The notes under the pieces were generated by a model that saw nothing but the letters and a program-made list of their open reading frames with translations, did not search any database and was not told where the DNA came from. Positions 17,925 to 52,247 of a stretch of DNA of 64,000 nucleotides are shown piece after piece. How positions within the stretch are numbered: the stretch's first letter is position 1; each line of letters begins with the position of its first letter. The translations under genes were made by a program, and so were the position numbers. Source of the DNA: Sphyrna mokarran (Eukaryota); assembly GCA_024679065.1 (NCBI GenBank), contig JAGIQG010000007.1, positions 76,942,001 to 77,006,000 of the forward strand, written 5' to 3'.

Positions 17925-19375
17925 AGGCATTTGACAAAGTGTCGTACAAAGGCTGCATAAAATAAAGGTGCGTGGCATTACTGATAATGTATTATTATGC
18001 ATAGAGGATCGATTACTAACAAAGCAAAGAGTGAGGATAGTGGGAGCTTTCCTGTTTAGCGATCAGTGACAAGTGGTGTGCCTCAGGGATCAGTGTTGGA
18101 ACCGCAATTGTTTGCGATTTACATAGATGATTTGGAATTGAGGACCAAGCGTAGTGTGTCACAGTTCGATGAACTAAGATGAGTGGTAGAACAAAGTGTG
18201 TAGAGGACACTGTAAGGATACAAAGAGATGTAGATAGTCTAAGTGAGTAGGAAAGGATCTGACCAACAGAGTACAATGTTGGTAAATGTGAGGTCATCCA
18301 ATTTGATAGGAATAACAGCAAAATGGACTATTATTTAAATGGTAAAGAATTGCAGCATGCTGCCATGCAGACTGACTTGGGTGCCCTTATTCATGAATCA
18401 CAAAAAGTTGGTTTGCAGGTCCAGCAGGAAATTAAGAAGGCAAATAGAATTTTATCCTTCATTGCTAGAGAGATGGAGTTTAAAACAGGGTGGTTATGTT
18501 GCAGCTGTTTAAAGTGCTGGTGACTTCACAACTGGAGTACTGTGTACAGTTTTGGTCTCCTTATTTGAGAAGGGATACATTGGCATTGGAGTGGGTGCAG
18601 AGGAGATTCATTAGGTTGATTCCAGAGAGGAAAGGGTTGGCTTATGAGGAGGACCGAGTGGGCTGGGACTAATTGGAATTCAGAAGAATGAAGGGAGATC
18701 TTATAGAAACATCTAAAATTAGGAAGGGAATACATAAGATTGTTTGCACTGGTGGGTAAAACTGATACTACAGGACATAGCCTCAAAATGAGGGGACACA
18801 GATTTAGGAGTGAGTTAAGGAGGAACTTCTTCACCCAAAGGATTGTGAATCTGTGGACTTTCCTGTCTATTGAAGCAATTGAGGCTACCTCTTTGAATGT
18901 TTTTAAGGCAAAGATAGATTTTTGAACAGCAAAGGAATTAAGGGTTAGGGTAAGCGAGCAAGTAAGTGGAGCTGTGTCCACAAAAAGATCAGCCATCTCT
19001 TGAGAAAACCAAAGATTCACAGCACTGAGTGAAGAAATTTCTAATTTCCTATCCTGAGACTAGGATTTACCAAGTTTACCACAATGTTATCCAGTATGGA
19101 AGGAGAGATTGTGAGGAGAGATTGAATAAACTGGGATTGTTTTCCTTGGAAAGATAAAGGCTGAGGAGTGACCTGATAGAAGTTTATAAAATTATGAGGG
19201 GCACAGATAAGGTTTGACACTTTTTCCCAGGGCAGAAATGACGATTACAAGGGAGCACAAATTCAAGTTCGGGGAGGTGATGGAGGGCGGGGGGAGGTTC
19301 AGTAGAGATGATCTTATTGAATGATGGAGCAGGCTCGAGAGCCCAGATGGTGCACTCCTGCTCCTCATTCTAATG
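17925..19375 (+). mobile_element. CR1 LINE, RT domain to 3' end, frameshifted; carries a 313-bp templated insert
   Basis: VTSGVPQGSVLEPQLFAIYIDDL at ~18066-18135; ORFs FKVLVTSQLEYCVQFWSPYLRRD and RGHRFRSELRRNFFTQRIVNLW; the 3' UTR AGATCAGCCAT|GATCTTATTGAATG is interrupted at 18997-19309. Confidence 0.92.
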
Positions 19376-19554: not shown

Positions 19555-20720
19555 GATGAGCAGGTCTATGCCATTTAGCCCTCGAGCGATATTCAGTAAG
19601 ATAATAGTAAATCCTTGACCTCAACTTCACTTTCTGATCAGGTCTCTGTGTCCTTTGATTCCTTTAGAGTCTAAAAATATATCAACTCAACATTGAATAT
19701 TCTCAGAAACAGAGTATCCACAGAACTCTGGAGAAAACCAAAGACTCCCAACCCTGAGTGAAGAAATTTCTCGCTTCCTTTCCTGAGACTAAGATTTACC
19801 AAGTTGATCAGGATGTTGCCTGGTGTATTAGCTGTGAGGAGAGATTGAATAAATTGTGTGATTGTTCTCTCTGGAAAGATGAAAGCTGAGGGGTGACCTG
19901 ATAGAAGTTTTTAAAATTATGAGAAGCGTAGATAAGGGGAACAGTTTGACAATTCTTCCTGGGGCAGTAATATTAATTACAAGGGGGCACAAATTCAAGT
20001 TTCAGTGGAGACGTGTGGGGTATACATTTTATGCAGAAGGTGGTGGGACCTGGAATACACTGTCAATTGAGGTTAGTGACATTTAAGACATATCTGGATA
20101 GACACATGAACAAGCAGAGAATAAAGGGATACAGGCAGTTGGTCTGGATAGGACAACATGATCGGCGCAGGCTTGGTGGGCCAAAGAGCCTGTTTCTGTA
20201 CTGTAAAGTTCTTTGTTTTCTTTGATCCGAGTTCCTGATTCTTCAGCCATTCATCCCCTCAAACTCTTTATGTTTCAATGATCTCAATCTCACGTTTCAA
20301 AACTTCAGTAAGTATAGACCCACTCCACTCAATCTCTGTTCAAAGACAATCCCTTCATCCTAAGAATCAGAATAGTGAACCTTTGTTGCACTCATGCCAA
20401 GGCAGACATATCCTTTAGGTACAGACATGTAAACCATAGAGAATAGTCCAGATGTAAATCAGCAAACATCTGCATGTTTGCAGCAAGAAATTTTCTTGTA
20501 ACACTTAACCCCCTTGCAATAAAGGTCAATTTACCATTTGCCTTCCTAACTGCTTAATGTATCCACATGTTACCTTTGTCTTTTTTTAACAGATCTGTTT
20601 GAGCACTGACATTTGATAGCTTTCCATCATTTAAAAGGTATTCTTCTTATCTAAATGGACAGTCTCTCACTTCCCCATACAATACTCACTTCCTGCCCAT
20701 TTGTTTAACCTGCCTATAAT
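19555..20720 (-). mobile_element. CR1 LINE fragment (minus), interrupted by a plus-strand CR1 3' fragment at ~19790-20225
   Basis: CCCTGAGTGAAGAAATTTCT (reverse complement of the RNFFTQR motif) and resumption at ~20230; the insert reads ERLNKL...RGDLIEVFKIMR and ends GGGCCAAAGAGCCTGTTTCTGTACTGTA. Confidence 0.7.
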
Positions 20721-21239: not shown

Positions 21240-21603
21240 GAACCATAGAATCCCCACAATGTGGAAAGAGGCCATTTAGCCCACCAAGTCTGTACCAACC
21301 CTCTGAAAGAGCATTCCATCCAAATCCTCTATTTGGCCTAATCTTTGTAACACAGTGCATACAGCATGACTAATCCACCTAATTTAGCCACCTTTCCCTG
21401 ACAGTAAGGGGCAATTTAGCTTGGTCAATCCATCTAACCTGCACATCTTTGGAGTGTGGGAGGAAACCGGACCACTCAAGAGGAAGCACATGGAGACATG
21501 GGGTGAATGTGCAAACTGCACGCAGTTACTCAAGACTGGAATTGAATTCAAATCCCTGGCGATATGAGGTGGCAGTGCTAATTACTGTGCCACCATACCA
21601 TCC
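21240..21603 (-). mobile_element. V-SINE, CR1-type tail A
   Basis: GGGCAATTTAGCTTGGTCAATCCATCTAACCTGCACATCTTTGGAGTGTGGGAGGAAACCGG...GCAGTGCTAATTACTGTGCCACC. Confidence 0.85.
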
Positions 21604-21905: not shown

Positions 21906-22883
21906 AGGGCAAAGAAAATCAGGAAAGATTTAGGGGGTGAATCCTGATCCACAGTAATTTGCTTTAGACTGAGCTGGCTTATTGTTTCCTGTTTATTCTC
22001 TTCCCTATTTCTTGAGGATGGTGTTGCACTTCTTACATTCTCATCCAGTGGGACCTAGGAAATTCTGTAAGATTGCAACCAATCTTTCCACTCTCTCGTC
22101 AGGCACCTGTTTAAAAACCGTGGCATATAGGCTATCAGGTCCGGGGGATTTGTCAGCTATTGTTCCCATGAATTTCTCTGGAATTTTTTCTTAACTAACA
22201 TAAATTACTTTTCAAGTTCCTCTTCTTTTAATCTAATAACCCTTAGTCACCAGTGAAAACAAATTCGAGCTCCCTAGATGATGAAAGAGATGGAGATTAA
22301 GAGGAGAAAAGAAATCTATGTTTATGACAGGTATCAGGTGGATAATACAACTGACGATACATGTTGATTATACATGTTCAATGGCAAAGTGTAAAATCAA
22401 ATAAGATAAGCAAAGGAAGAGGCAAAAGGGAATCCTGAAGTCTTCTAGCTTATAAATAATAAAAGGCTGGTTAAAAAACAACTGTTAAGGTCCAAAAAAG
22501 GAATTTATGCTTAGAGGCAGAGGACATAGCCTAGCTATTAAATGAATATTCTGCATCCATTTTACAAAGAAAAAAGTACTGCTTAGCTCACGGTGAAAAA
22601 AGAGGCAGTTCAGACATTTGGAGTGTTTAACACTGATTAGGAGAAGGCTTTGGAAATGCTATCTGTAATTAAATTGGTGAGGCACCCAGAACCAGGTAGG
22701 ATATAGTCAAGAATACTGAAGAAAATGAGACCGGAAACTGTGGAGGCTTCCAGACTTGCTTACACTTGGGGTGGAGGTGAAGGGGGATGCTGCTGGAATA
22801 CTGCAAATGTCCTGCCAATGTCAATGGCAATTTGCATGGCTCATCCATCCTGCCACAGGAAACCTGTGGAAGGGGTTGCCTTA

Positions 22884-23015
22884 GTAAGAAATCTCAACAC
22901 CAGGTTAAAGTCCAACCAGTTTATTTGACTATCAGATAGTCTGTTTGAACTTTAACCTGGTGTTGTGAGACTTTTTGCTGTATCTACCCAAGTCCAACGC
23001 CGGCATCTCCTCATC
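22884..23015 (+). mobile_element. Fold-back mini-element family 1, copy A (centre deleted), 13-bp TSD
   Basis: Inverted arms CAACACCAGGTTAAAGT / ACTTTAACCTGGTGTTG, tail ACCCAAGTCCAACGCCGGCATCTCCTCATC; flanks AGGGGTTGCCTTA (22871-22883) and AGGGGTTGACTTA (23016-23028). Confidence 0.85.
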
Positions 23016-23548
23016 AGGGGTTGACTTATGCAGGACTGAAAGATCCTGCCAGTGGAAAATATCAAAGTCCTTGTGCAGCCAACCTGTGCTTTGTTTGTAG
23101 GGCCATAGAGTACAAGAACAAGGAGATTATGTTAAGTTTGGATAAAACATTTGTTAAGCCTCAAATTGAGTATTGCGTTGATTTCTAGGCTGTGCATTTT
23201 AGGAAAGATGTGAAGGAATTAGGATCAGTTCAAAAAAGATGCAAAAGAATCATTCCAGGGATGGGGGTCTTAGTTATGTTGACGGATTGGAGAAAATTGA
23301 GGAAAGATTTGACAGACATTTTCAAAATCACGAGGGGGCCTGAATAGAGTAGAAAAGAACAACAGTTCCCATTGGTGCAAGGATTGAGAATTAAAGTACA
23401 CAAATTTTAGGCAATTGGGGAAAAAAAAATGAAGACATGCAGAGAAATTTCTTCCTGCAGCCAGAGGAATGCACTGCCTCAATGTAAGAAGTCAGTAAGA
23501 ATTTAGCAACACCAATTTTAAATCCAACCGATTTATTTGGTAGTAAAA

Positions 23549-23588
23549 TTGCGAGCTTTCAACACTCTGTCGTGTCTTCGTCAGGCAA
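23549..23588 (-). ncRNA. Minimal type I hammerhead ribozyme motif (mirror copy)
   Basis: Exact reverse complement of 23602-23641. Confidence 0.65.
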
Positions 23589-23601
23589 ATGCACACTGCA
23601 T

Positions 23602-23641
23602 TTGCCTGACGAAGACACGACAGAGTGTTGAAAGCTCGCAA
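23602..23641 (+). ncRNA. Minimal type I hammerhead ribozyme motif
   Basis: TTGC-CTGACGA-A-GACAC(GACAGA)GTGTT-GAAA-GCT-C-GCAA: CUGANGA and GAAA core, stem II GACAC/GTGTT, stem I TTGC/GCAA, self-complementary AGCT in place of stem III; predicted cleavage after C23637. Confidence 0.7.
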
Positions 23642-24299
23642 TTTTACTATCAAATAAATCGGTTGGATTTAAAATTGGTGTTGCTAAATTCTTACTGAGT
23701 TCTTACTACCCCAGTCCAACACCGGCATCTTTACATCCTGCCTCAATGTGGCAGAGGCAGGTTTAACTGCGATATTCAATTGTAACATTATCTGAAGAGA
23801 GAGAATGGGCAATGTTACGGGGTGTGGAAGTTAGGGAATGGCACCATATACTTTGCATATTTAGAGAATCAACACACACAATGGGTCAAATGACCTCCTG
23901 CTATGCTATAACAATTCTGGCAATGAATCACTTTTCCAGTGGAGCTATTATTTATCAATGGATTATACATTCAGAATTATGAAACATTTATTCAACTAGT
24001 TGCCATTGCCTTTTAATCTAAGTTTCAAATCTATCTTAGTCAACTCACCTCTTATGAAATTAGCTTTATTTGCATTTAAGACCCTAGTTTTTGGACTTCA
24101 TTACATTATTCTGAACTCAGTGTAAAATCCAATCATAGATGATCATGCTTCCTCAGCCTATCCCTACCATGATATAACCACTTAACTGTCTCATTGCATA
24201 GAATTATCAGAAATGTCCTAGTGCCTCTGCACTAAATTACCACTCTTGCCAAATTCTGAACTTTCAAAGTCTGTTTATTCATATATGCTGCTCAGCCAC

Positions 24300-24735
24300 T
24301 CTGTGGGTGCTTGTAGATGCTTTAATCGTGGTCTTTCGAAATTTTCTTGATTCAAGAGTAGGATTGGAAAAATGTCAACATTTTACCATTACAGTAAAAG
24401 GATGGGAGAGGTTAACCATGAAATAAAATCTGATGGGTGAAAAAGTTTCTGGAAGCTATCATTGACATACAAAGTATTAAGTGCTTTGTGCTCATGAACT
24501 AATCGCAGAGAGTGGATGTGAATTTATATAGATAAAGTCAAATTGAAACAACTTTGTTGCATTTTTTAAGCAGTTCACTAATATTGATAGATAAAGTATG
24601 AACCATAGATGTTATTTATGTGGCCTTTTAGAAGGCATTTAATAAGTTGCCGTACAAGAGATTACCAACAAAAATGAAAACCCATGGAATTGGAGGCAAT
24701 CTTTTGGTCTAGACGGGAATTGTTTAGATGGTAGA
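24300..24735 (+). mobile_element. Old CR1 RT fragment
   Basis: DVIYVAF*KAFNKLPYKRLPTKMKTHGIGG at ~24608-24697 (cf. DVVYLDFQKAFDKVPHxRL). Confidence 0.7.
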
Positions 24736-25884
24736 AGGTAAAACTCCAGCATGTTCTCTTTATGAACAGTCAAAGTCACAGCATTTACACATATTCCTAA
24801 CAAATAGGATTGATGTGGCAGGCAGAGAACTTAAAAACTAAGATCGCACATTAGCCTGTGAAACCAACTACAGGGCAATTGATTGCATAAACTAAGACAT
24901 TATTTTATTTTGAAAAAAAATGTTCTCGTTATTGTGGGGCATCCCTCCAACCACAAACTACATCTGTGGCTTCAATTCCCCCCTGTCTTGGACATGAGAA
25001 GTACCCTGTCTAAAACAAAATGCCAGGGACTAAGCCACCAAAGTGGAAGGCTCATAGATTGCTGCTTAATTAGATTCCATTTAAAAAAAAATTAGAAGGT
25101 TTTTTTGCAGATGATAATGACATAGTTGAATAGGACTTTCAGAAATCCATCTCGTCATCTGTATTATCTGTAATATCCTCAATGATGTTGAGGAGATTTA
25201 ACAGACAAGGTTTTCCTTGTCCAAATAAATGTTGGCTGTTATTTTATATGGTCATAGAAATATTTTTATTGTATTAATTAATCTGCCTGACTATACAAAT
25301 TGCAAAAATCTTGGCTATATCAGAGCATAGTAAAGCTAGCTCCAGACTCTTTCAGCTTTTGTCAGCGTCTTATGCCATCATTAAGAAAGTCCTGATCAGA
25401 TTACTTCTATTTGTCTATCACTCATCTATATCAGTGCCTGCTGGAGCAACACAAATGTACAAGTTGAGTTTTTCATTCTGTTGCAGCAACATTTTCAAAA
25501 ACTGGAACTGATTGTATATGGTTCTTATGGATGTACTTTTTAACAAGGAAGAATCTAGTGCCTTCCCCTATGGCGAATATGATGAATAGGGTGGCATTAA
25601 TCAAGCTAGAGGGTGACATGGCGGTTGGGAAGAATACCACTTTGCTATTTCCACCCTGATTGAAACCCTTGGCTTGAAAGCCCCTGGACATCCTTTCCAC
25701 TCCATCACTAATTGAGCCCCTTAAGTGGGGCAGCTAATGCCCAATCAAGGGCCTCACCCCACCATCATTGATAGAGGTGGTAGGGTCATGACGGGACATG
25801 GCATGGTGACACTGTACCATTACACGTGTTTCTGGGCTCTCCTCGATCTGACACCTCAAGTGGGTGCAGAATCAGCAGCAATCG

Positions 25885-26092
25885 GCATGGGTTTCCTCCA
25901 GGTGTTCCAGATTCCTTCCACACTCTAAAGATGTGAAGTTTAGGTGGAATGGCCGTGCTAAATTGCCCCTTAGTGTCAGAAAGCTCACAGGGTAAATATG
26001 TGGGTTTATAGGGATAGGCCTGGGTGGGATTGCTGTCGGTGTTGGTTCGATGGGCCAAATGGCCTCCTTCTGCATTGTAGGAATTCTGTAGT
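25885..26092 (+). mobile_element. V-SINE 3' half, tail A
   Basis: GGGTTTCCTCCAGGTGTTCC...GCTAAATTGCCCCTTAGTGTC...GGGCCAAATGGCCTCCTTCTGCATTGTAGG. Confidence 0.85.
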
Positions 26093-26711
26093 GGTTTTGT
26101 CAAATCTCCAGCTGGTGACCCAGACCAATGAGTTTGTCCAACATCTTTTTAACCAGCGTTAAATTATAAAGTCTGTTATAACGGAAGGAAAAGTAGTATT
26201 TAATTTAAAACTATCACACATCAAGCGTTGCCTGAATCTGAAATATTTGATATTTGGCATATTGTGCTCTGTGCTGCTAAAGTTTCCTCGACATTGACCC
26301 TCTCATAACCCTATAATCTGGGTGCAAACAAATTGCATTGTTTAAAACACCATGGAATTTGTAGTATAAGTGAGCTCATGCATGAAAGTCATCCTTTCAA
26401 CATTTTACATCTGCCCATCTCTCTCCTAAATTGTGTCCTCCCACTGATCTGGCCCAACCGTTATCATGAAAAGATGAGAAGACTGTTTAAACTGAAGTGT
26501 AGCTCTAATTTAAAGGGAGCTATTCTCTCCAGGAAATAGTCAGGTGCATTACAGAACCACTAAATGACACCATGTTGGATAACACTGAAGGGCTAGTTTG
26601 AAAGAAGTGGACAAGTGCTTTTCAATGTCATATCTGTTTTATTTAAAAAAAAGAAAAGTGTTTAACATTTATTTGTTACAATTGAAACTGATGCAATGTG
26701 CTGCTTGCTCA

Positions 26712-27000
26712 AGTCTCAGCCTTTGCTCAATGGTAACACATTGGCCTCTTAGTTAGAAGGTCGTGAGTTCAAGTTCCACTCCAGAGAGATGAGCATATAA
26801 TCCCAGCTGACTCTTCAGTGCCGCACTGCTGAAATTCCTGTCTTTTGGATGACACGTTTAATTGAGGCCCCATCTGTCCTCTCTGGTAAATATATAAGAT
26901 CACATTGATCTATTTGCTGAAGAACAGAGAGGTTTTGTTGATGTCTTGAGCAATTAACATTTATCCCTCAACCAACATCATTAAAAAGAAATACTGGCCA
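26712..27000 (+). mobile_element. Deu-domain SINE (SacSINE1-like), 5' part; 3' part at 30370-30505
   Basis: tRNA head GCTCAATGGTAACAC...GAGTTCAAGTTCCACTCCAGAGA and Deu-like core CCTGTCTTTTGGATGACACGTTTAATTGAGGCCCCATCTG...ATTTATCCCTCAACCAACATCA. Confidence 0.7.
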
Positions 27001-28480
27001 CAGAATTCCGTTTGGGTTGCAAGATGGCAGCCAGATCTCGTGCACAGATCTCGTGTGGGCAATGCTCAGTAGCTTTTTGTTGAGGGTGTCAGCACAAGCA
27101 CAGGGGGCATGACCTGGGGTATATAGAGCAGGCAGATCATGACATCAGTCAGCGGGTAATGCTGATTTGACTGTTGCAGAGTCATTTTCAATTTCAACAC
27201 TCCAGCTAACATCCTCTTTTAACCTTTCACAGCTGAACATGCGTTTAGCGTCAGGAACAGTTCCCCCCACCACTCCTCCAGCACTATTTAAAGGGATCAT
27301 CAGCTTCTTGCAGATTAGTTGCTGATTGATTTCTACAGGCTGCTGCTGAGTTAGTGGAAGTGTTTGATGGTTTGCACTGTAATTTGAAGTTAGTGAAGTC
27401 TGCCGGGCATGGAAGTTACACGTGGTGAAGGCTTTGGTTCTTATTTCAAGGGTTTCTTGCCAAAATCGTGCCTGGGTGGTGTCTTTCCCATCCCCCTTGG
27501 CCTTCAGTATGACAGGGCAGTGAGCAAAGGCAACAAAGAGAGCAAGTTGCTTGAAAAGGAAGTAGAAGAAAGGGGAAGAAGAGCTCTCAGTAGGAGGCTA
27601 AATCCCAGCCACAGGATGGAATTTAATGCCTGCCCCTGTGATGAGTTTTATGGCAGGGGAACATTTAAACAGATGAGTAGGTGGCATTTGGGTCTGTGTC
27701 ACCTTCCTTCCTCCGCACTGATTAAATCTGTGGAAGAACAGCCCATTAACTGCCTTCCCACCCTGCTGCCAGTTGAGGCCCTTAAGGAGGCAATTAGTGC
27801 CAGTCAAGAGTCTCTTCCCATCACTATCACTAATATTCAGTGGCAGGTGAGGGACTTGCCATGAGGCATGCAGGACATGCAAACACTAACACGTTTTCTT
27901 GTGGGCATCCAGGGTGGGGGAAGAGTCTATTGTTCAAAGGCACTCTGGGCATGATTGAGTACCTCAGCACTGGGAAGGGGGCAACCCACTGAGAGCCACC
28001 CCCTACTCTTTCTGCTGACCCCACCCCTGTGAGCCTCCTCTCCCTCCACTCAATTGTGGCCTGGAATCCAACACTAATTCTAAGCCTCAGGTGGATGTTA
28101 TGCCTCCCTGGTGACACACTCCTGTTCAGTAGAGCTGCTAGCCTCTGATTGGCTGTTCTCAGTCTCTCGGGTCCTCGATTCCACTCAAGGCTGATAAATA
28201 CCCGAGTGTCATTTAATTTGACAAGTATTCTCGAAAAGAAGCAGGGGCTGCCATCAACTGGAGAGCCAGTGGGCGAGACTCACATCACCTGCAGCCCATG
28301 GTCTTCAAGAAGCAATTTACCTATTAATCTCCATGAGGAACAGAATAAGCAAAATCTTGTTTTGAGAAATAGGCGCTGGCTGACTGATATGAGTAACCTG
28401 TTGTTGGCAGTACTGCACCCTCAGAGCAGCATGAGGATAGCCCTGCAGTGGCTGTACAGGTTTTCAATGTCCTCAAATCG

Positions 28481-28748
28481 AATGGTTAGCACTGCTGCCT
28501 CACAGCACCAAAGACCTGGGTTCGATTCCCAGCTTGGATCACTGTTTGTGCAGAGTCTGCACATTCTCCCATTTCTGTTTGGGTTTCCTCCTACAGTCTG
28601 AAAGATGTGCTGGTTAGGTGCACTGGCCATGCTAAATTCTCCCTCAGTGTATCCAACAGGTGCCTGAGTGTGGCGACTCGGGGATTTTCACAGTAACTTC
28701 ATTGCAGTGTTAATGTATGCCTACTTGTGATGCTAATAAATAAACTTT
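28481..28748 (+). mobile_element. V-SINE, tail type B
   Basis: TGGTTAGCACTGCTGCCTCACAGC..GGGTTCGATTCCC head; tail GGGATTTTCACAGTAACTTCATTGCAGTGTTAATG...AATAAATAAAC. Confidence 0.88.
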
Positions 28749-29267
28749 AAAACATGAGGAGGCAAACAATGCAAACAACATCTCCAAGTTTTGACAGTCT
28801 GCAATGCACTGCTGTGTAGAGGAAGCCACTGTCGCATGTATACCCGAAAAAGAATACATTGTGTTCTTTATTTCCAGCAAAAAGCAAACAGAGTGTGCAC
28901 GTGCAGGTTGCCATTGACTGCACACATGTTGCTTTGCAGATGCTGTATCTAAATGCGAAATTATAATGCAGTCTCAAAAGATTTGACTCCCTGAATGTAC
29001 AGTGGATATGTGACTATGCTCAGCACAGCATGCCACTGAATATCCAATATCCTGACAGCAATTGTGAGGCTTTCATTCTGTGCCAGTCCACTGACTACTG
29101 AGTGGCAAGAGCTTTCTAAGGACTATGTTTCATAACTCCACTGTGTAACCCAAGCACGCATGGACAACACATCAATAAGAAGAGCCATGCTGCCCCATGA
29201 AATGTCATTGAACAGTTCCATCGTTGGCTTAAGCAGCAATTCCATTGCCTGGGCTAGTTTGGAGAAA

Positions 29268-29501
29268 AGCAGAAAGAAATCCCACAACACCAGTTTAAAG
29301 TCCAAACAGGTTTATCTGTAGCAAAAGCTCCAAACTTTTGAGGCTGGGAGTTCTCAATTCCTAGCCATCTAACGAAGGGACACAGGCTGTCCCGAAAGCT
29401 TGGGGCTTTTGCTACAAATAAACCAGTTTGGACTTTAAACTGGTGTTGTGGGATTTCTTTCTGTTTTACCCCAGTCTAATGCCGGCATCTCCACATCATG
29501 A
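29268..29501 (+). mobile_element. Fold-back mini-element family 1, copy C, 14-bp TSD, hammerhead-like motif with a core mutation
   Basis: ~75-bp inverted arms (~29265-29340 / 29393-29467); CTAACGA-A-GGGACA(CAGGC)TGTCCC-GAAA-GCT-T at 29369-29401; tail ACCCCAGTCTAATGCCGGCATCTCCACATC; CTAGTTTGGAGAAA at 29254-29267 and 29502-29515. Confidence 0.9.
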
Positions 29502-30212
29502 CTAGTTTGGAGAAACACTGCAATACTTGTCAGAGTGCATGTCGTAACTCATTGTGGATTGCTGTGTCCTGCATAACCTTTATCATGAAGGCACACCCTT
29601 TGTACCAGGCCTACGACATGGAGATGAGGGAATCAGAAACAGAGAGGGAGAAAGCAAACATCACACCCCTTTCAGGCTAAGCTGTTCACGTCTAACACAT
29701 CTGATAGGAATACATGTGAAAACAACCCTAATTTCCCATTCAGTAACAGTTCCCACACCTGGTCTTCCTTTTCTTACCGACCATCATACAGTCCTCCTGA
29801 CCATAATATCTCCACAAAACAGACATTCCAAACCTGGAGGCGGGTGGGGGGCGGAGGTGGGCAATGTTCCTGTCAGACTTAAAGTTTTGCCTAGGTCCAA
29901 GTGCTGCCAGATGCTTCCCAGTCGAAGGGCTCCTCCAGGGTGGCTGTTTATTTTTTTTTATTTAAAATTTCAAAATATTTGCATTGGTGGTGTGAGGGTG
30001 TTTCTTATGCTAAAATGCCATCTCAATTATTTGCCATATCTGTTCAAACTGGGAAGCCTCTGCTGCACTTTTACGATGTCCAGCTTTGAGTGCCTTGGAC
30101 AGGAAACCTGCCTCCATGCCAGTTCAGTGGATTCCTTGGTGAAAATCCTGAAAAGTAGCTATCCCTCTGGGACATGTTCAGAACAATTCCTGTTCCCTGT
30201 CTCTGGAGAGAA

Positions 30213-30324
30213 ATGTGGAGGTGCCGGTGTTGGACTGGGGTAGATACGGTAAGAAATCTCACGAAGGAACAGTCGGTTCTGAAAGCTAGTGGCATTTGCT
30301 GCAAATAAACACATTGGACTTTAA
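30213..30324 (-). mobile_element. Fold-back mini-element family 1, copy D (inverted, internally deleted)
   Basis: ATGTGGAGGTGCCGGTGTTGGACTGGGGT is the reverse complement of the family tail; joined to ACGA-A-GGAAC(AGTCG)GTTCT-GAAAGCTAGTG...CAAATAAAC..TTGGACTTTAA. Confidence 0.8.
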
Positions 30325-30369
30325 TTTGAAAAGAATTCCAGCTCTTGATGTCCATTGTCCAGGTGGCCT

Positions 30370-30505
30370 GTTAGAGTTGTGTGCAAGTTGCCTCTGGTGT
30401 TACAACAATGAATGTACTGCAAAAGTACATTATGATCTGTGACATTGGCGTTTTAGGAAGTCCTAAGATCGGGAAAGAAACTATATCAATCCAAGTTCTA
30501 TTCTA
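30370..30505 (+). mobile_element. 3' part of the Deu-domain SINE
   Basis: TTACAACAATGAATGTACTGCAAAAGTAC...GTCCTAAGATCGGGAAAGAAACTATATCAATCCAAGTTCT resembles the L2-type tail of DeuSINEs. Confidence 0.55.
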
Positions 30506-30587
30506 CTGAATTATTATGAAGAATATATGGTTTCTAAAACTGCTCTTTTTGTGTTGCATCATTAAAGAACTGCTCTAAGTGGAGAGT

Positions 30588-30920
30588 GGGTGGCACGGTA
30601 GCAAAGTGGTTAGCACTGCTGCTTCACAGCTCCAGGGTCCTGGGTTCGATTCCTGACTCAGATCACTGTTTGTGTGGAGTTTGCACATTCTCCTCATGTC
30701 TGTGTGGATTTCCTCCAGGTACTCCGGTTTCTTCCCACAGTCCAAAGATTGCGGGTTAAGTTGATTGGCCATGCTGAGCAATTGCCCCTTAGTGTTCAGG
30801 GATGTGTAGGTTAGAGGAATTAGTGGATATGGGGGTAGGACCTGGATGGGATTGTGTTCGGTGCAGACTCGATGGGCTGAAGGAACTCTTTCTGCACTGT
30901 AGAGTTCTATGAATCTATGA
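30588..30920 (+). mobile_element. Full-length V-SINE (HE1-like), CR1-type tail A
   Basis: GGCACGGTAGCAAAGTGGTTAGCACTGCTGC (A box), GGGTTCGATTCC (B box), V core, tail TCTGCACTGTAGAGTTCTATGAATCTATGA. Confidence 0.92.
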
Positions 30921-31774
30921 TACCCTCTGAGAAAAAGAAAGTGTTTAGTGTTGTTCCGGTCTACTTGTGGACAATACTGGTTTCAAAAATAATGGCATAT
31001 TAAGTTAGCAATTGACTTGAAAACTTACTCTGTAATAGGCATCATTGCCAACAATGTTAATGTTGATTTTAGTGGTTCACTGCCTCTCTGCTACACTAAA
31101 GCTAAAGTTTAACATACTTAATGCACTATATGAGACGAACACAGCAGCAGTGGCTGTTGTAATTGTATAATCACAACAGCAATGAACATGCATTGTACTG
31201 CTGAGCTTTCACAGGGCCAACAAACTGTAAGGATAAGAGCAGGACAAGCAGGGGATCACTGGATCATATTTAGGAGAAATAAGAATTAAAAAACAAAACA
31301 ATTAAAGACAAAAAATGTTAACCAAGAGCACACTAATCCATCACAGAGGAAGAGACTATCAGAATAAATATAGGAGCCACAGTTCATTAGCTTGTCCTAA
31401 TGGCTACTTTAACTACATCTGTTCAAAGCATTCATTAACTATGTTTTAAAACAGTTTGTAAGATAAGTACAAAGATAATTTGAACACAGTAGCTACTTTC
31501 AATCTGTCTTTTTTCTTCCTTTTTCTCTTGAAGGTGCTTTTTCGGGCTGGAATTTGGTTCCATAAGTTGATCATCCTAAATCTTTTTCTCTTTTTTTCAC
31601 CTTTCCTTCCCTTGCTTCCCTTCTTGATATCTTCTGATTCCACTGGCATTATGGGCCTTCTGATAGCTCTGCATGACTGTTCTTCATCTGTAAGCTGAAA
31701 TAATGAATGATGACTAGCCGTACAACCAGGGGAGCAAACCCAAACTATCCTCACCAGACACTCTAAACGTACAC

Positions 31775-32814: not shown

Positions 32815-33140
32815 TTGCACTGTGGCACAGTCATTAGCATTGGTGCCTCACAACTCCAATGACCCGGGTTCAATTTTAACTTTGGATGACTATCTTTGTG
32901 AAATTTGCACATTCTTCCTGTGTCTGCATGGGTTTCCTCCGGGTGCTCCGGTTTCCTCTCTCACTCCAAAGATGTGCAGATTAGATTAGATTGGCTGTGC
33001 TAAACTGCCCATTAGTGTCAAGGGGATTAACAGGATAAATATGTGGTGTTAATGGGGATAGAGTCCAGGAAGAATTATTGTTGGTGCAGACTTGATGGGC
33101 CAGATTGCCTCCTTCTGCACTGTAGGGATTCTGTGATTCA
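32815..33140 (+). mobile_element. Full-length V-SINE, tail A, inserted in a CR1 fragment
   Basis: Head, GGGTTTCCTCCGGGTGCTCCGGTTTCCTC core and CR1-type tail; the flanks (32740-32812, 33141-33215) read as contiguous CR1 RT. Confidence 0.9.
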
Positions 33141-51300: not shown

Positions 51301-51961
51301 TCCCACTATGTGTGCAAACAGAAGAAAAATGTCCAAACTGTCATGATCCTCTGATTAAAGGATCTGCTGTGTACACTGGTCAACCTTTATCCTGAACCCT
51401 TATTAGACTTCATTTCTTTTCTTCCACATAGCATTCAAAATCACTGAAAGGGTCATGCATTTGCAGTTAACTCTTTGCAAGCTCTTGGGCCGTTGTTGCT
51501 TTCACATTACAGATATATTTTCATTCATACGTAGATAAAAATGATTTTTGGCAAATTCCATTCTCTGGAAAACAGCACAGTTCTACAGAATAGTGCTTAG
51601 TTAATATTTTTGGGATTAACAAATGCATTTAGTTGTGATTATTTTTGAATGTTGTGTTAAATAACAATGCAGCATTCTAAAGATTCATTCTTAAGGCACT
51701 GAAAGGTCCAACTTGTCCCCCAAATCAGCTAGTATATTTTTAGATTTTCAGCTCACACACCATATTCTGTATAAGACATTTCTTTTTAAAAGCTAGCCAA
51801 ATATGTTTGAAGGTAGGATTATACAAATAAATATTAGAACTAATTTTAAATAAAATCAATTTTAAAAAAGAAGCTTTTGGATTCATTGGTTCTGTTTTTC
51901 TCTATTTTTGATTCTTTGCCAACCATTCTCCAACATTTATTATTTAAATGAATTTGCATAA

Positions 51962-52247
51962 TCGTTAGCACGATTATGCCTCACAGCGCCAGGGACCGGG
52001 GCTCGATTCCTAGCTTGGATCACTGTCTGTGCGGAGTCTGCACGTTATCCTTGTGTCTGCATGTGTTTCCTCCAGGTGCTCTGGTTTCCTCCCACAGTCC
52101 AAAAAACATGACGGTTATGTGCATTGGCCATGCTAAATTCTCCTTCAGTGTACTCAAACAAGCACTAGAATGTGGCAACTCAGGGATTTTCAAAGTAACT
52201 TCATTGCAGTGTTAATGGAATCCTATTTGTGACACTAATAAATAAAT
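51962..52247 (+). mobile_element. V-SINE, tail B
   Basis: GCCTCACAGCGCCAGGGACCGGGGCTCGATTCC...AAGTAACTTCATTGCAGTGTTAATG...GTGACACTAATAAATAAA. Confidence 0.9.

What the first reader, a model, noticed from the sequence alone, without database searches (positions are those of the whole stretch)
22871..30324. Family of tiny non-coding fold-back retro-insertions carrying a covarying hammerhead ribozyme motif
Seen: four related 110-255 bp elements (A 22884-23015, B 23484-23737, C 29268-29501, D 30213-30324) share the layout [inverted arm][arm with AATAAA][30-nt tail ACCCCAGTCCAACGCCGGCATCTCCACATC]; AATAAA is lost from A's right arm. A, B and C have direct flanking repeats of 13, 12 and 14 bp. Between ACGA-A and GAAAGCT each of B, C and D has a different but pairing stem: GACAC/GTGTT, GGGACA/TGTCCC, GGAAC/GTTCT. 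Established: Penelope-like retroelements have pseudo-LTRs that are often inverted and contain minimal type I hammerheads with a palindromic, dimer-forming stem III. Inference: these are ORF-less pLTR-only insertions (retrozyme/SINE-like) mobilised in trans or extremely truncated, from several subfamilies in which the ribozyme fold was under selection. I cannot tell whether this family is already catalogued.
Basis: partly seen in the sequence, partly recalled or inferred. Interest (0 to 1): 0.85.

Follow-up and report, generated by a model that had tools for sequence, protein, structure and literature searches.

The report
Truncated Penelope retrotransposon ends with ribozyme
Four short hairpin-like inserts in this fish-like vertebrate DNA are most likely the cut-short ends of a known kind of jumping gene (Penelope), whose ends are already known to carry a small self-cutting RNA motif, so the finding is real but largely ordinary.

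Summary
The four elements are real, related and non-random. A, B and C are fold-backs with a one-sided 30-nt tail and 13-, 12- and 14-bp target-site duplications. D is not a fold-back: it lies on the minus strand and looks like a twin-priming inversion joined by microhomology. Only B has an intact minimal type I hammerhead (on both strands); C has G5>A, D is broken at its junction, A has none. Stem II pairs in 15 of 15 cells with 2 of 5 pairs changed on both sides, weak support with three sequences. Every feature (minimal hammerhead with bulged base, inverted 5'-truncated copy, 30-40-bp tail on one side, variable TSD) is published for Penelope-like elements (PLEs). The copies do not share a fold-back junction and B is only 61% identical to C, so they are independent, dead-on-arrival PLE 3'-end insertions from at least two subfamilies, not copies of one non-autonomous master. 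They are not tandem, so not retrozymes. In a transcript B's hairpin buries its own ribozyme. No link to an RT/GIY-YIG ORF could be shown, and Dfam/Repbase could not be checked. New member of a known kind; interest 0.22.

The parts
22871..22883 (+). A: left target-site duplication copy (13 bp, 1 mismatch to right copy)
22884..22928 (-). A: inverted arm (45 nt; holds AATAAA on the minus strand; no hammerhead)
   Evidence: 37 of 45 identical to right arm
22932..22985 (+). A: direct arm after a 3-nt loop; AATAAA decayed
22986..23015 (+). A: 30-nt one-sided tail
23016..23028 (+). A: right target-site duplication copy
23474..23485 (+). B: left target-site duplication copy (12 bp, exact; last 2 nt shared with the inverted arm)
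23484..23593 (-). B: inverted arm (110 nt) with an intact minimal hammerhead on the minus strand (about 23549-23588)
   Evidence: 108 of 110 identical to right arm
23597..23707 (+). B: direct arm after a 3-nt loop
23602..23641 (+). B: intact minimal type I hammerhead: stem I 23602-05/23638-41, core 23606-12, bulged A 23613, stem II 23614-18/23625-29, GAAA, palindromic AGCT, predicted cleavage after C23637
   Evidence: published consensus
23653..23658 (+). B: AATAAA
23708..23737 (+). B: 30-nt one-sided tail
23738..23749 (+). B: right target-site duplication copy
29254..29267 (+). C: left target-site duplication copy (14 bp exact; 16 bp with 1 mismatch)
29268..29350 (-). C: inverted arm with a 25-nt deletion that removes hammerhead core and stem II
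   Evidence: 74 of 83 aligned positions identical
29358..29467 (+). C: direct arm after a 7-nt loop; AATAAA at 29417
29364..29406 (+). C: decayed hammerhead (G5>A at 29371, A.G mismatch in stem I; stem II 29377-82/29388-93 intact)
   Evidence: (not found by descriptor)
29468..29501 (+). C: tail, ending at or next to an ATG (last 1-2 nt may belong to the TSD)
29502..29515 (+). C: right target-site duplication copy
30202..30212 (+). D: possible degenerate 11-bp TSD, partner 30325-30335 (8 of 11, three transitions); uncertain
   Evidence: chance 0.4% at fixed register, 6% with +-3 nt slack
30213..30261 (-). D: short direct part plus tail (element on the minus strand)
30256..30262 (.). D: inversion junction, microhomology (6 of 7 nt) between the direct part and the hammerhead core; destroys G5
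   Evidence: junction set beside A left arm and C core
30262..30324 (+). D: inverted part holding the 3' portion of the hammerhead (stem II 30266-70/30276-80) and AATAAA

Best explanation
The four elements are independent, severely 5'-truncated insertions of the 3' end (pseudo-LTR plus tail) of endonuclease-bearing Penelope-like retrotransposons, from at least two subfamilies (B; A/C/D), in an intron of a ZFHX4 gene of a non-mammalian vertebrate, probably a cartilaginous fish. Likely mechanism: the element's RT/GIY-YIG protein nicks both target strands 11-16 nt apart (giving the TSD). One 3' end primes reverse transcription at the far end of the tail. The inverted arm, which always begins just upstream of the tail, is made either by the second target end priming at the upstream start site on the same RNA (twin priming) or by the first cDNA folding back on itself. 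When both copies reach the same point the product is a hairpin with a 3-7-nt loop and a one-sided tail (A, B, C). When the first cDNA stops early the two cDNAs join by microhomology and the product is an inversion with a small deletion (D). The hammerhead is a passenger from the parent's pLTR; its stems were kept under selection in the active parents, and it was not cleaved in the templates of B, C and D. The copies themselves are inert: no ORF, no same-strand ribozyme partner, and in B the ribozyme is buried in the hairpin. Shown here: anatomy, TSDs, hammerhead state, folding. From papers: that these are PLE hallmarks. Inferred: parentage and the priming steps.
For: One-sided 30-nt tail, inverted 5'-truncated copy and variable TSDs match PLE structure as described in PMC8557442 and PMC3846280 (inverted pLTR, 31-bp tail, 8-10-bp TSDs, palindromes at the inverted junction). 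B fits the published PLE min-HHR consensus including the bulged base between 9 and 10.1 and a GC palindrome at 15.2/16.2; PMC4209133 reports min-HHR pairs on opposite strands 100-700 bp apart and most motifs as single truncated PLE copies. PMC11167929 shows a PLE protein nicking and extending both strands, two RT start sites with the tail between them, about 85-92 nt from the cleavage site, and uncleaved RNA as the main template; here the tail lies 71-100 nt downstream of the cleavage site. Inverted arms of A, B, C start within about 1-9 nt upstream of the tail. D's geometry and junction match twin priming as defined for L1 in PMC2837659. Arms are more alike within an element than between B and the others (98% vs 54-69%), and apex sequences differ. 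B's helices have probability 0.0000 in the whole element; forcing them costs 75 kcal/mol.
Against: No copy attached to an RT or GIY-YIG ORF was seen: none of 144 frames of 45 aa or more at 19-34 kb and 134 frames of 65 aa or more elsewhere matched such a Pfam family, though that scan also missed a decayed LINE-like stretch seen, so it is insensitive. No relatives from other genomes could be fetched. The apices of B and C lie 9 and 11 nt upstream of the core and D stops in the core, which hints at a preferred RNA 5' end or stop rather than random truncation. Covariation rests on three sequences (26 of 500 shuffles reach it). D's TSD is uncertain (6% by chance with slack). Targets are not plainly AT-rich, unlike the preference reported for the anole element. 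The host lineage rests on recall of the SINE and on ZFHX4 distances, not on a direct match.
Confidence: 0.8

Rival explanations
1. A non-autonomous, SINE-like family: a short non-coding RNA that starts just upstream of the hammerhead (own promoter or processed pLTR transcript) is mobilised in trans by PLE proteins, giving hairpins of a preferred length.
For: B and C, only 61% identical, fold back 9 and 11 nt upstream of the core, and D stops in the core; 4 of 4 copies are under 260 bp with no ORF sequence; PMC3846280 shows pLTRs suffice in cis for mobilisation in trans; the 2026 preprint 10.64898/2026.07.22.740005 derives non-autonomous hammerhead repeats from pLTRs.
Against: No two copies share an apex sequence; A stops about 12 nt downstream of the cleavage site; D has another geometry; heavy 5' truncation is the norm for PLEs; four copies cannot show a length mode.
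Confidence: 0.15
2. Non-LTR retrozyme: a tandem hammerhead repeat that makes circular RNA by double self-cleavage and is re-inserted.
For: Type I hammerhead, 110-255-bp non-coding size, likely PLE partner; one chondrichthyan genome is reported to hold retrozymes.
Against: Retrozymes are defined by direct tandem units each with a hammerhead; here copies are single, B's two motifs are on opposite strands, ends do not map to the cleavage site, and only 1 of 4 has an intact core.
Confidence: 0.03
3. MITE or foldback DNA transposon with a chance hammerhead-like stretch.
For: Short, non-coding, palindromic, flanked by direct repeats.
Against: The two termini are not inverted copies of each other (the tail lies outside the inverted repeat on one side only); TSD length varies (12, 13, 14); arm length varies from 45 to 110; D is no palindrome; the hammerhead descriptor gives 0 hits in 40 simulated windows; no transposase family in 278 frames scanned.
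Confidence: 0.015
4. Assembly or library artefact (fold-back chimeric reads).
For: B is a near-perfect palindrome with a 3-nt loop.
Against: TSDs flank A, B and C; arms differ within each element (2 of 110, 8 of 45, 9 of 83 plus a 25-nt deletion), as expected of ageing insertions.
Confidence: 0.005

Closest known systems
Endonuclease-positive Penelope-like elements (Penelope/Poseidon, Neptune), truncated tandem/inverted insertions with tail (PMC8557442, PMC3846280, PMC2377424)
   Same: Inverted 5'-truncated copy next to the direct copy, 30-40-bp tail on one side only, variable TSD, palindromic junction, tail next to the ORF start
   Different: No ORF sequence at all in these four; clade not assignable without protein; TSDs here 12-14 bp versus 8-10 bp in the rotifer examples
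Minimal type I hammerheads of PLE pLTRs (PMC4209133)
   Same: CUGANGA core, bulged base after A9, G10.1, 5-6-bp stem II, no loop III with palindromic 15.2/16.2, short stem I, AU-rich sequence downstream, variable stems between subfamilies, opposite-strand pairs
   Different: No cartilaginous fish among the 40 species in the searched supplement; only B is intact; activity untested
Poseidon_Ac (PAc) of the green anole (PMC11167929)
   Same: Hammerhead about 70-100 nt upstream of the tail; uncleaved RNA used as template; both target strands used
   Different: In PAc the ORF starts in stem II; here indels between copies break the frame before the tail, so that part looks non-coding; targets here not plainly AT-rich
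Non-LTR retrozymes (PMC7229834; bioRxiv 10.64898/2026.07.22.740005)
   Same: Short, non-coding, type I hammerhead, PLE-related
   Different: Retrozymes are direct tandem repeats, mostly with canonical hammerheads, and yield circular RNA; these are single inverted insertions
L1 twin-priming insertions (PMC2837659)
   Same: D: inverted and direct fragments of one RNA with a small internal deletion and junction microhomology
   Different: No poly(A) tail; different element class; A-C show duplication (fold-back) instead of deletion

Membership tests
Penelope-like element (EN+), truncated copy | Derived from an element with one ORF encoding RT plus GIY-YIG endonuclease | tested here: inconclusive
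   No such Pfam match in 144 + 134 frames of the window; no relatives fetched; no eukaryote genome collection, Dfam or Repbase available
Penelope-like element (EN+), truncated copy | Inverted 5'-truncated copy adjacent to the 5' end | tested here: met
   A, B, C fold-backs; D inversion; described in PMC8557442
Penelope-like element (EN+), truncated copy | 30-40-bp tail at one end only | tested here: met
   4 of 4 elements, 30-34 nt
Penelope-like element (EN+), truncated copy | Target-site duplication of variable length | tested here: met
   3 of 4 clear (13, 12, 14 bp), D uncertain
Penelope-like element (EN+), truncated copy | Minimal type I hammerhead in the pLTR | tested here: met
   Intact in B, remnants in C and D, absent from A, which is too short
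Minimal type I hammerhead (PLE type) | Core CUGANGA, bulged base, G10.1 stem II, GAAA, palindromic 15.2/16.2, UH, stem I | tested here: met
   B only: 1 of 4 elements (against the consensus)
Minimal type I hammerhead (PLE type) | Compensatory changes in the helices | tested here: inconclusive
   Stem II 15 of 15 cells paired, 2 of 5 pairs changed on both sides, 26 of 500 shuffles as high, slid controls 20-53%; three sequences only
Minimal type I hammerhead (PLE type) | Self-cleavage (weak, dimer- or protein-dependent) | not testable with these tools
   Needs in vitro assay; folding predicts sequestration in whole B
Non-LTR retrozyme | Two or more direct tandem units, each with a complete hammerhead | tested here: not met
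   Single copies; B's two motifs on opposite strands
Non-LTR retrozyme | Circular RNA with ends at the cleavage site | not testable with these tools
   No RNA data; genomic ends do not map to the cleavage site
MITE / TIR transposon | Inverted repeats at both termini | tested here: not met
   Tail lies outside the inverted repeat
MITE / TIR transposon | Fixed TSD length | tested here: not met
   12, 13, 14 bp
SINE-like non-autonomous family | Many copies sharing one master sequence with the same ends | tested here: inconclusive
   No shared junction among 4 copies; B and C end close to one another; genome-wide counts not possible

The most novel reading that the evidence does not exclude
In this lineage a short non-coding pLTR RNA that begins at the hammerhead's 5' edge is the routine substrate of Penelope proteins, both target ends are primed on that one RNA at two fixed sites, and the standard product is a tiny perfect hairpin that switches off its own ribozyme. 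That would be an undescribed non-autonomous class, a genome-wide in vivo record of how PLEs make their second strand, and a large source of intronic double-stranded RNA for ADAR or Dicer.
Probability: 0.15. Interest if true: 0.55.

Novelty: new member of a known kind. Interest (0 to 1): 0.22.

Why it matters
As it stands it adds one more host, probably a shark or ray, to a known pattern: PLE ends with minimal hammerheads, inverted truncations and tails. Its modest value is mechanistic. How PLEs finish integration is open (PMC11167929 leaves the later steps unvalidated; PMC3846280 proposes self-priming on an antisense template). These very short copies keep both junctions readable, and D versus A-C suggests that twin priming and fold-back are two outcomes of one reaction; a genome-wide tally of such junctions would test that. 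Such hairpins are also easily mis-annotated as MITEs or microRNA precursors (one search gives sub-threshold microRNA matches) and, in a transcribed intron, are likely dsRNA editing targets (inference; PMC5625713 reports Penelope as a massively edited repeat in a lizard).

Tried and rejected
Rfam: 0 matches at gathering scores in the whole window; at E <= 10 over 22700-31000, 20 matches, all below gathering score, mostly generic hairpins, none a hammerhead family. Further copies in the window: none (nhmmer; covariance model with filters off: 4 strong hits and C's deleted left arm at E 0.09, the other 5 of 10 at E 0.7-3). PLE or transposase ORF: none in 278 frames; three weak matches below cut-off; frames shorter than 45 aa (near) or 65 aa (far) and frames with N were not scanned. 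Relatives elsewhere: 0 exact tail matches in bacterial/archaeal genomes, no match in plasmids or phages, no protein sharing words with a 49-aa frame over D; a full protein scan with a 31-aa frame gave 1 unnamed hit, which was not examined. These collections are not where a vertebrate repeat is expected, so the blanks say little. Empty-site test against paralogous repeats in the window: no convincing spanning match (one at E 0.19 for C). Discarded own errors: one search used wrong columns; B stem II values and the 86 kcal/mol figure were mis-indexed and were redone; one search counts B twice (33 of 36 cells paired, 0 of 500 shuffles) and overstates covariation, so one search is used. A two-copy cofold of B's motif did not form the intermolecular stem III in the minimum-energy structure. 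The sequence-only consensus pattern has 0.15 expected chance matches and its two hits are one event, so it is not strong evidence alone. Literature: ten searches found no paper describing this family; a 16-nt piece of the tail occurs in 0 papers; none of the 25 listed of 2,231 papers held 'hammerhead ribozyme'. Rejected: MITE, retrozyme, artefact (see rivals); hammerhead cleavage as the source of the 5' ends (B, C, D reach 40, 43 and about 26 nt upstream of the site).


Full report
Setting. The window is vertebrate DNA of about 40% GC with two N runs, both far from the finding. An exon at about 2348-2590 (+) is a ZFHX4 exon: 69-80% identity to six named bird, fish and primate proteins, three of them labelled zinc finger homeobox protein 4. 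Five of those proteins find no other exon in the window, so the elements probably lie in a long intron, sense to the + strand (inference). The window is rich in a roughly 350-bp repeat with A- and B-box-like motifs (15 further matches to one copy). I recall this repeat, and the tail itself, as typical of shark genomes; that is recall, not a test. PMC2911107 (passages) says only that HE1 tRNA-SINEs occur in elasmobranchs and zebrafish. The host lineage is therefore 'non-mammalian vertebrate, probably cartilaginous fish'.

Observation. The tail occurs at exactly 4 places for each of three queries, and a profile of the arms gives 8 hits with E <= 5e-11, all within A-D, then nothing better than E 0.32. 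A covariance model of the hammerhead region adds no new copy. TSDs of 13 (1 mismatch), 12 and 14 bp flank A, B, C; 0 of 295 random positions score as well. A, B and C are fold-backs with loops of 3, 3 and 7 nt and arm identities of 37/45, 108/110 and 74/83. C's left arm lacks 25 nt that cover the core and stem II, which hid its true apex. D differs: minus strand, a 63-nt inverted part and a 49-nt direct part that do not overlap, about 11 nt missing between them, and a junction where the direct part and the hammerhead core share 6 of 7 nt. An 11-bp direct repeat with three transitions abuts both ends of D; chance is 0.4% at fixed register and 6% with slack, so it is only suggestive.

The ribozyme. 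A structure descriptor finds one intact minimal type I hammerhead, in B, on both strands; 40 simulated windows give none. C and D are not found even with one core mismatch allowed. B matches the published consensus for PLE hammerheads, which I read in the supplement of PMC4209133: bulged base after A9, G10.1, short stem I, no loop III with a palindromic 15.2/16.2 pair. The GC version, U or A at position 17 and G-U at 10.1-11.1 all occur among the 56 motifs listed there, and the turtle motif is followed by the same AATAAA context. Stem II is paired in 15 of 15 cells across B, C and D, 2 of 5 pairs change on both sides, slid controls give 20-53%, but 26 of 500 shuffles reach the value. Stem I also changes in concert between B and C (two double-sided changes). 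The signal is real-looking but thin. Rfam holds no matching family.

What the ribozyme can do here. In B's right arm alone stem II forms with probability 0.86-0.91 and stem I with 0.44-0.62; in the whole element both are 0.0000 and forcing them costs 75 kcal/mol (whole-element fold -191 kcal/mol, z -34). PMC4209133 (main text parts 1-2) found no cleavage by a monomer and low cleavage by dimers; PMC11167929 (main text parts 1-2) found cleavage only with the element's protein and that uncleaved RNA is the main template. B, C and D reach 40, 43 and about 26 nt upstream of the cleavage site, so their templates were uncleaved (and sequence). The motif is a passenger in these copies.

What it is. 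PMC8557442 (passages) describes PLE insertions as heavily 5'-truncated, often with an inverted 5'-truncated copy at the 5' end and a 30-40-bp tail at one end. PMC3846280 (passages) shows inverted pLTRs, a 31-bp tail, 8-10-bp TSDs, palindromes at the junction, solo pLTRs and mobilisation in trans. PMC4209133 reports opposite-strand hammerhead pairs 100-700 bp apart and most motifs as single, probably truncated PLEs. [quoted passage not shown] All four elements fit this. B is 54-69% identical to the others, while A, C and D are mostly 78-87% alike (two short comparisons 67-69%), so at least two subfamilies inserted, B recently. The missing test is the link to an RT + GIY-YIG ORF: none was seen in 278 frames, and no tool here reaches eukaryote genomes, Dfam or Repbase (blank).

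How it most likely arose. The anole PLE protein nicks and extends both target strands and starts reverse transcription at two sites that bracket the tail. Here the direct arm always ends at the tail's far end and, in A-C, the inverted arm starts within about 1-9 nt upstream of the tail; B and C show 2-3 nt shared between TSD and arm start (read from the sequence). The simplest reading is that both target ends prime on the pLTR RNA. If both cDNAs reach the same point a hairpin results; if the first stops early, the two anneal by microhomology and give D, the geometry defined as twin priming for L1 in PMC2837659 (passages). Fold-back of the first cDNA on itself gives the same A-C product (small-hairpin self-annealing is described for L1 ends in bioRxiv 10.1101/2024.12.14.628481, passages), and PMC3846280 proposes self-priming on an antisense template. 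These cannot be told apart with four copies; all are inferred.

Non-LTR retrozymes are direct tandem repeats with a hammerhead in each unit (PMC7229834, passages; bioRxiv 10.64898/2026.07.22.740005, main text parts 1-3); this feature was tested and not met. A SINE-like master would give shared ends; the four apices differ in sequence. I give that reading 0.15. MITE and artefact readings fail on asymmetric ends, variable TSDs and arm divergence.

Novelty. The kind is known in every feature. Ten literature searches found no description of this family; the library lacks most subscription papers, and repeat databases were not available. Penelope elements are listed for the whale shark genome (PMC8455134, one passage), retrozymes for one chondrichthyan (supplements not seen), and the searched supplement of PMC4209133 names no shark (its file 1 was not searchable; three text files of the PMC11167929 supplement gave no hit). 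PMC12910113 and PMC6155905 (passages) added nothing specific. The family may well be catalogued already. Verdict: new member of a known kind, interest 0.22; most novel reading 0.15 likely, 0.55 if true.

Noticed in passing
window 2348-2590 (+): ZFHX4 exon with acceptor- and donor-like flanks; no other ZFHX exon found in the window, so the elements are probably intronic.
   Followed up: yes
window 29451-29470 (+), and the same place in A, B, D: The tail begins with a pyrimidine tract plus CAG, like a 3' splice site (C: 15 of 17 pyrimidines, top 0.7% of YAG sites; A and D top 5%, B top 11%; A has lost the C), and C's tail ends at or next to an ATG. May mark a 5'-UTR intron end and the ORF start of the parent; inference.
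   Followed up: partly
window 29268-29350: C's inverted arm has a 25-nt deletion that removes just the hammerhead core and stem II; RT skipping a hairpin or later deletion in the palindrome.
   Followed up: partly
window 22884-30324: All four copies fall within 7.4 kb of the 64 kb (P about 0.006 for uniform placement, post hoc); A-B are 470 bp apart and C-D 710 bp apart.
   Followed up: no
window 23100-23770: B sits inside a decayed LINE 3' remnant whose translation recalls CR1/L2 ORF2 (family label from recall, no Pfam match).
   Followed up: partly
window 30585-30940 and 15 further matches (e.g. 32817-33139, 51956-52134, 21395-21603): Abundant tRNA-like SINE family with A- and B-box-like motifs, 68-85% identical pieces; recalled as HE1-like.
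   Followed up: partly
window 18997-19269 and 19726-20001: A 275-bp direct repeat pair, 78% identical, 730 bp apart.
   Followed up: no
window 23484-23706: 110-bp near-perfect hairpin in a probable intron; gives sub-threshold microRNA-precursor matches and is a candidate dsRNA editing target.
   Followed up: no
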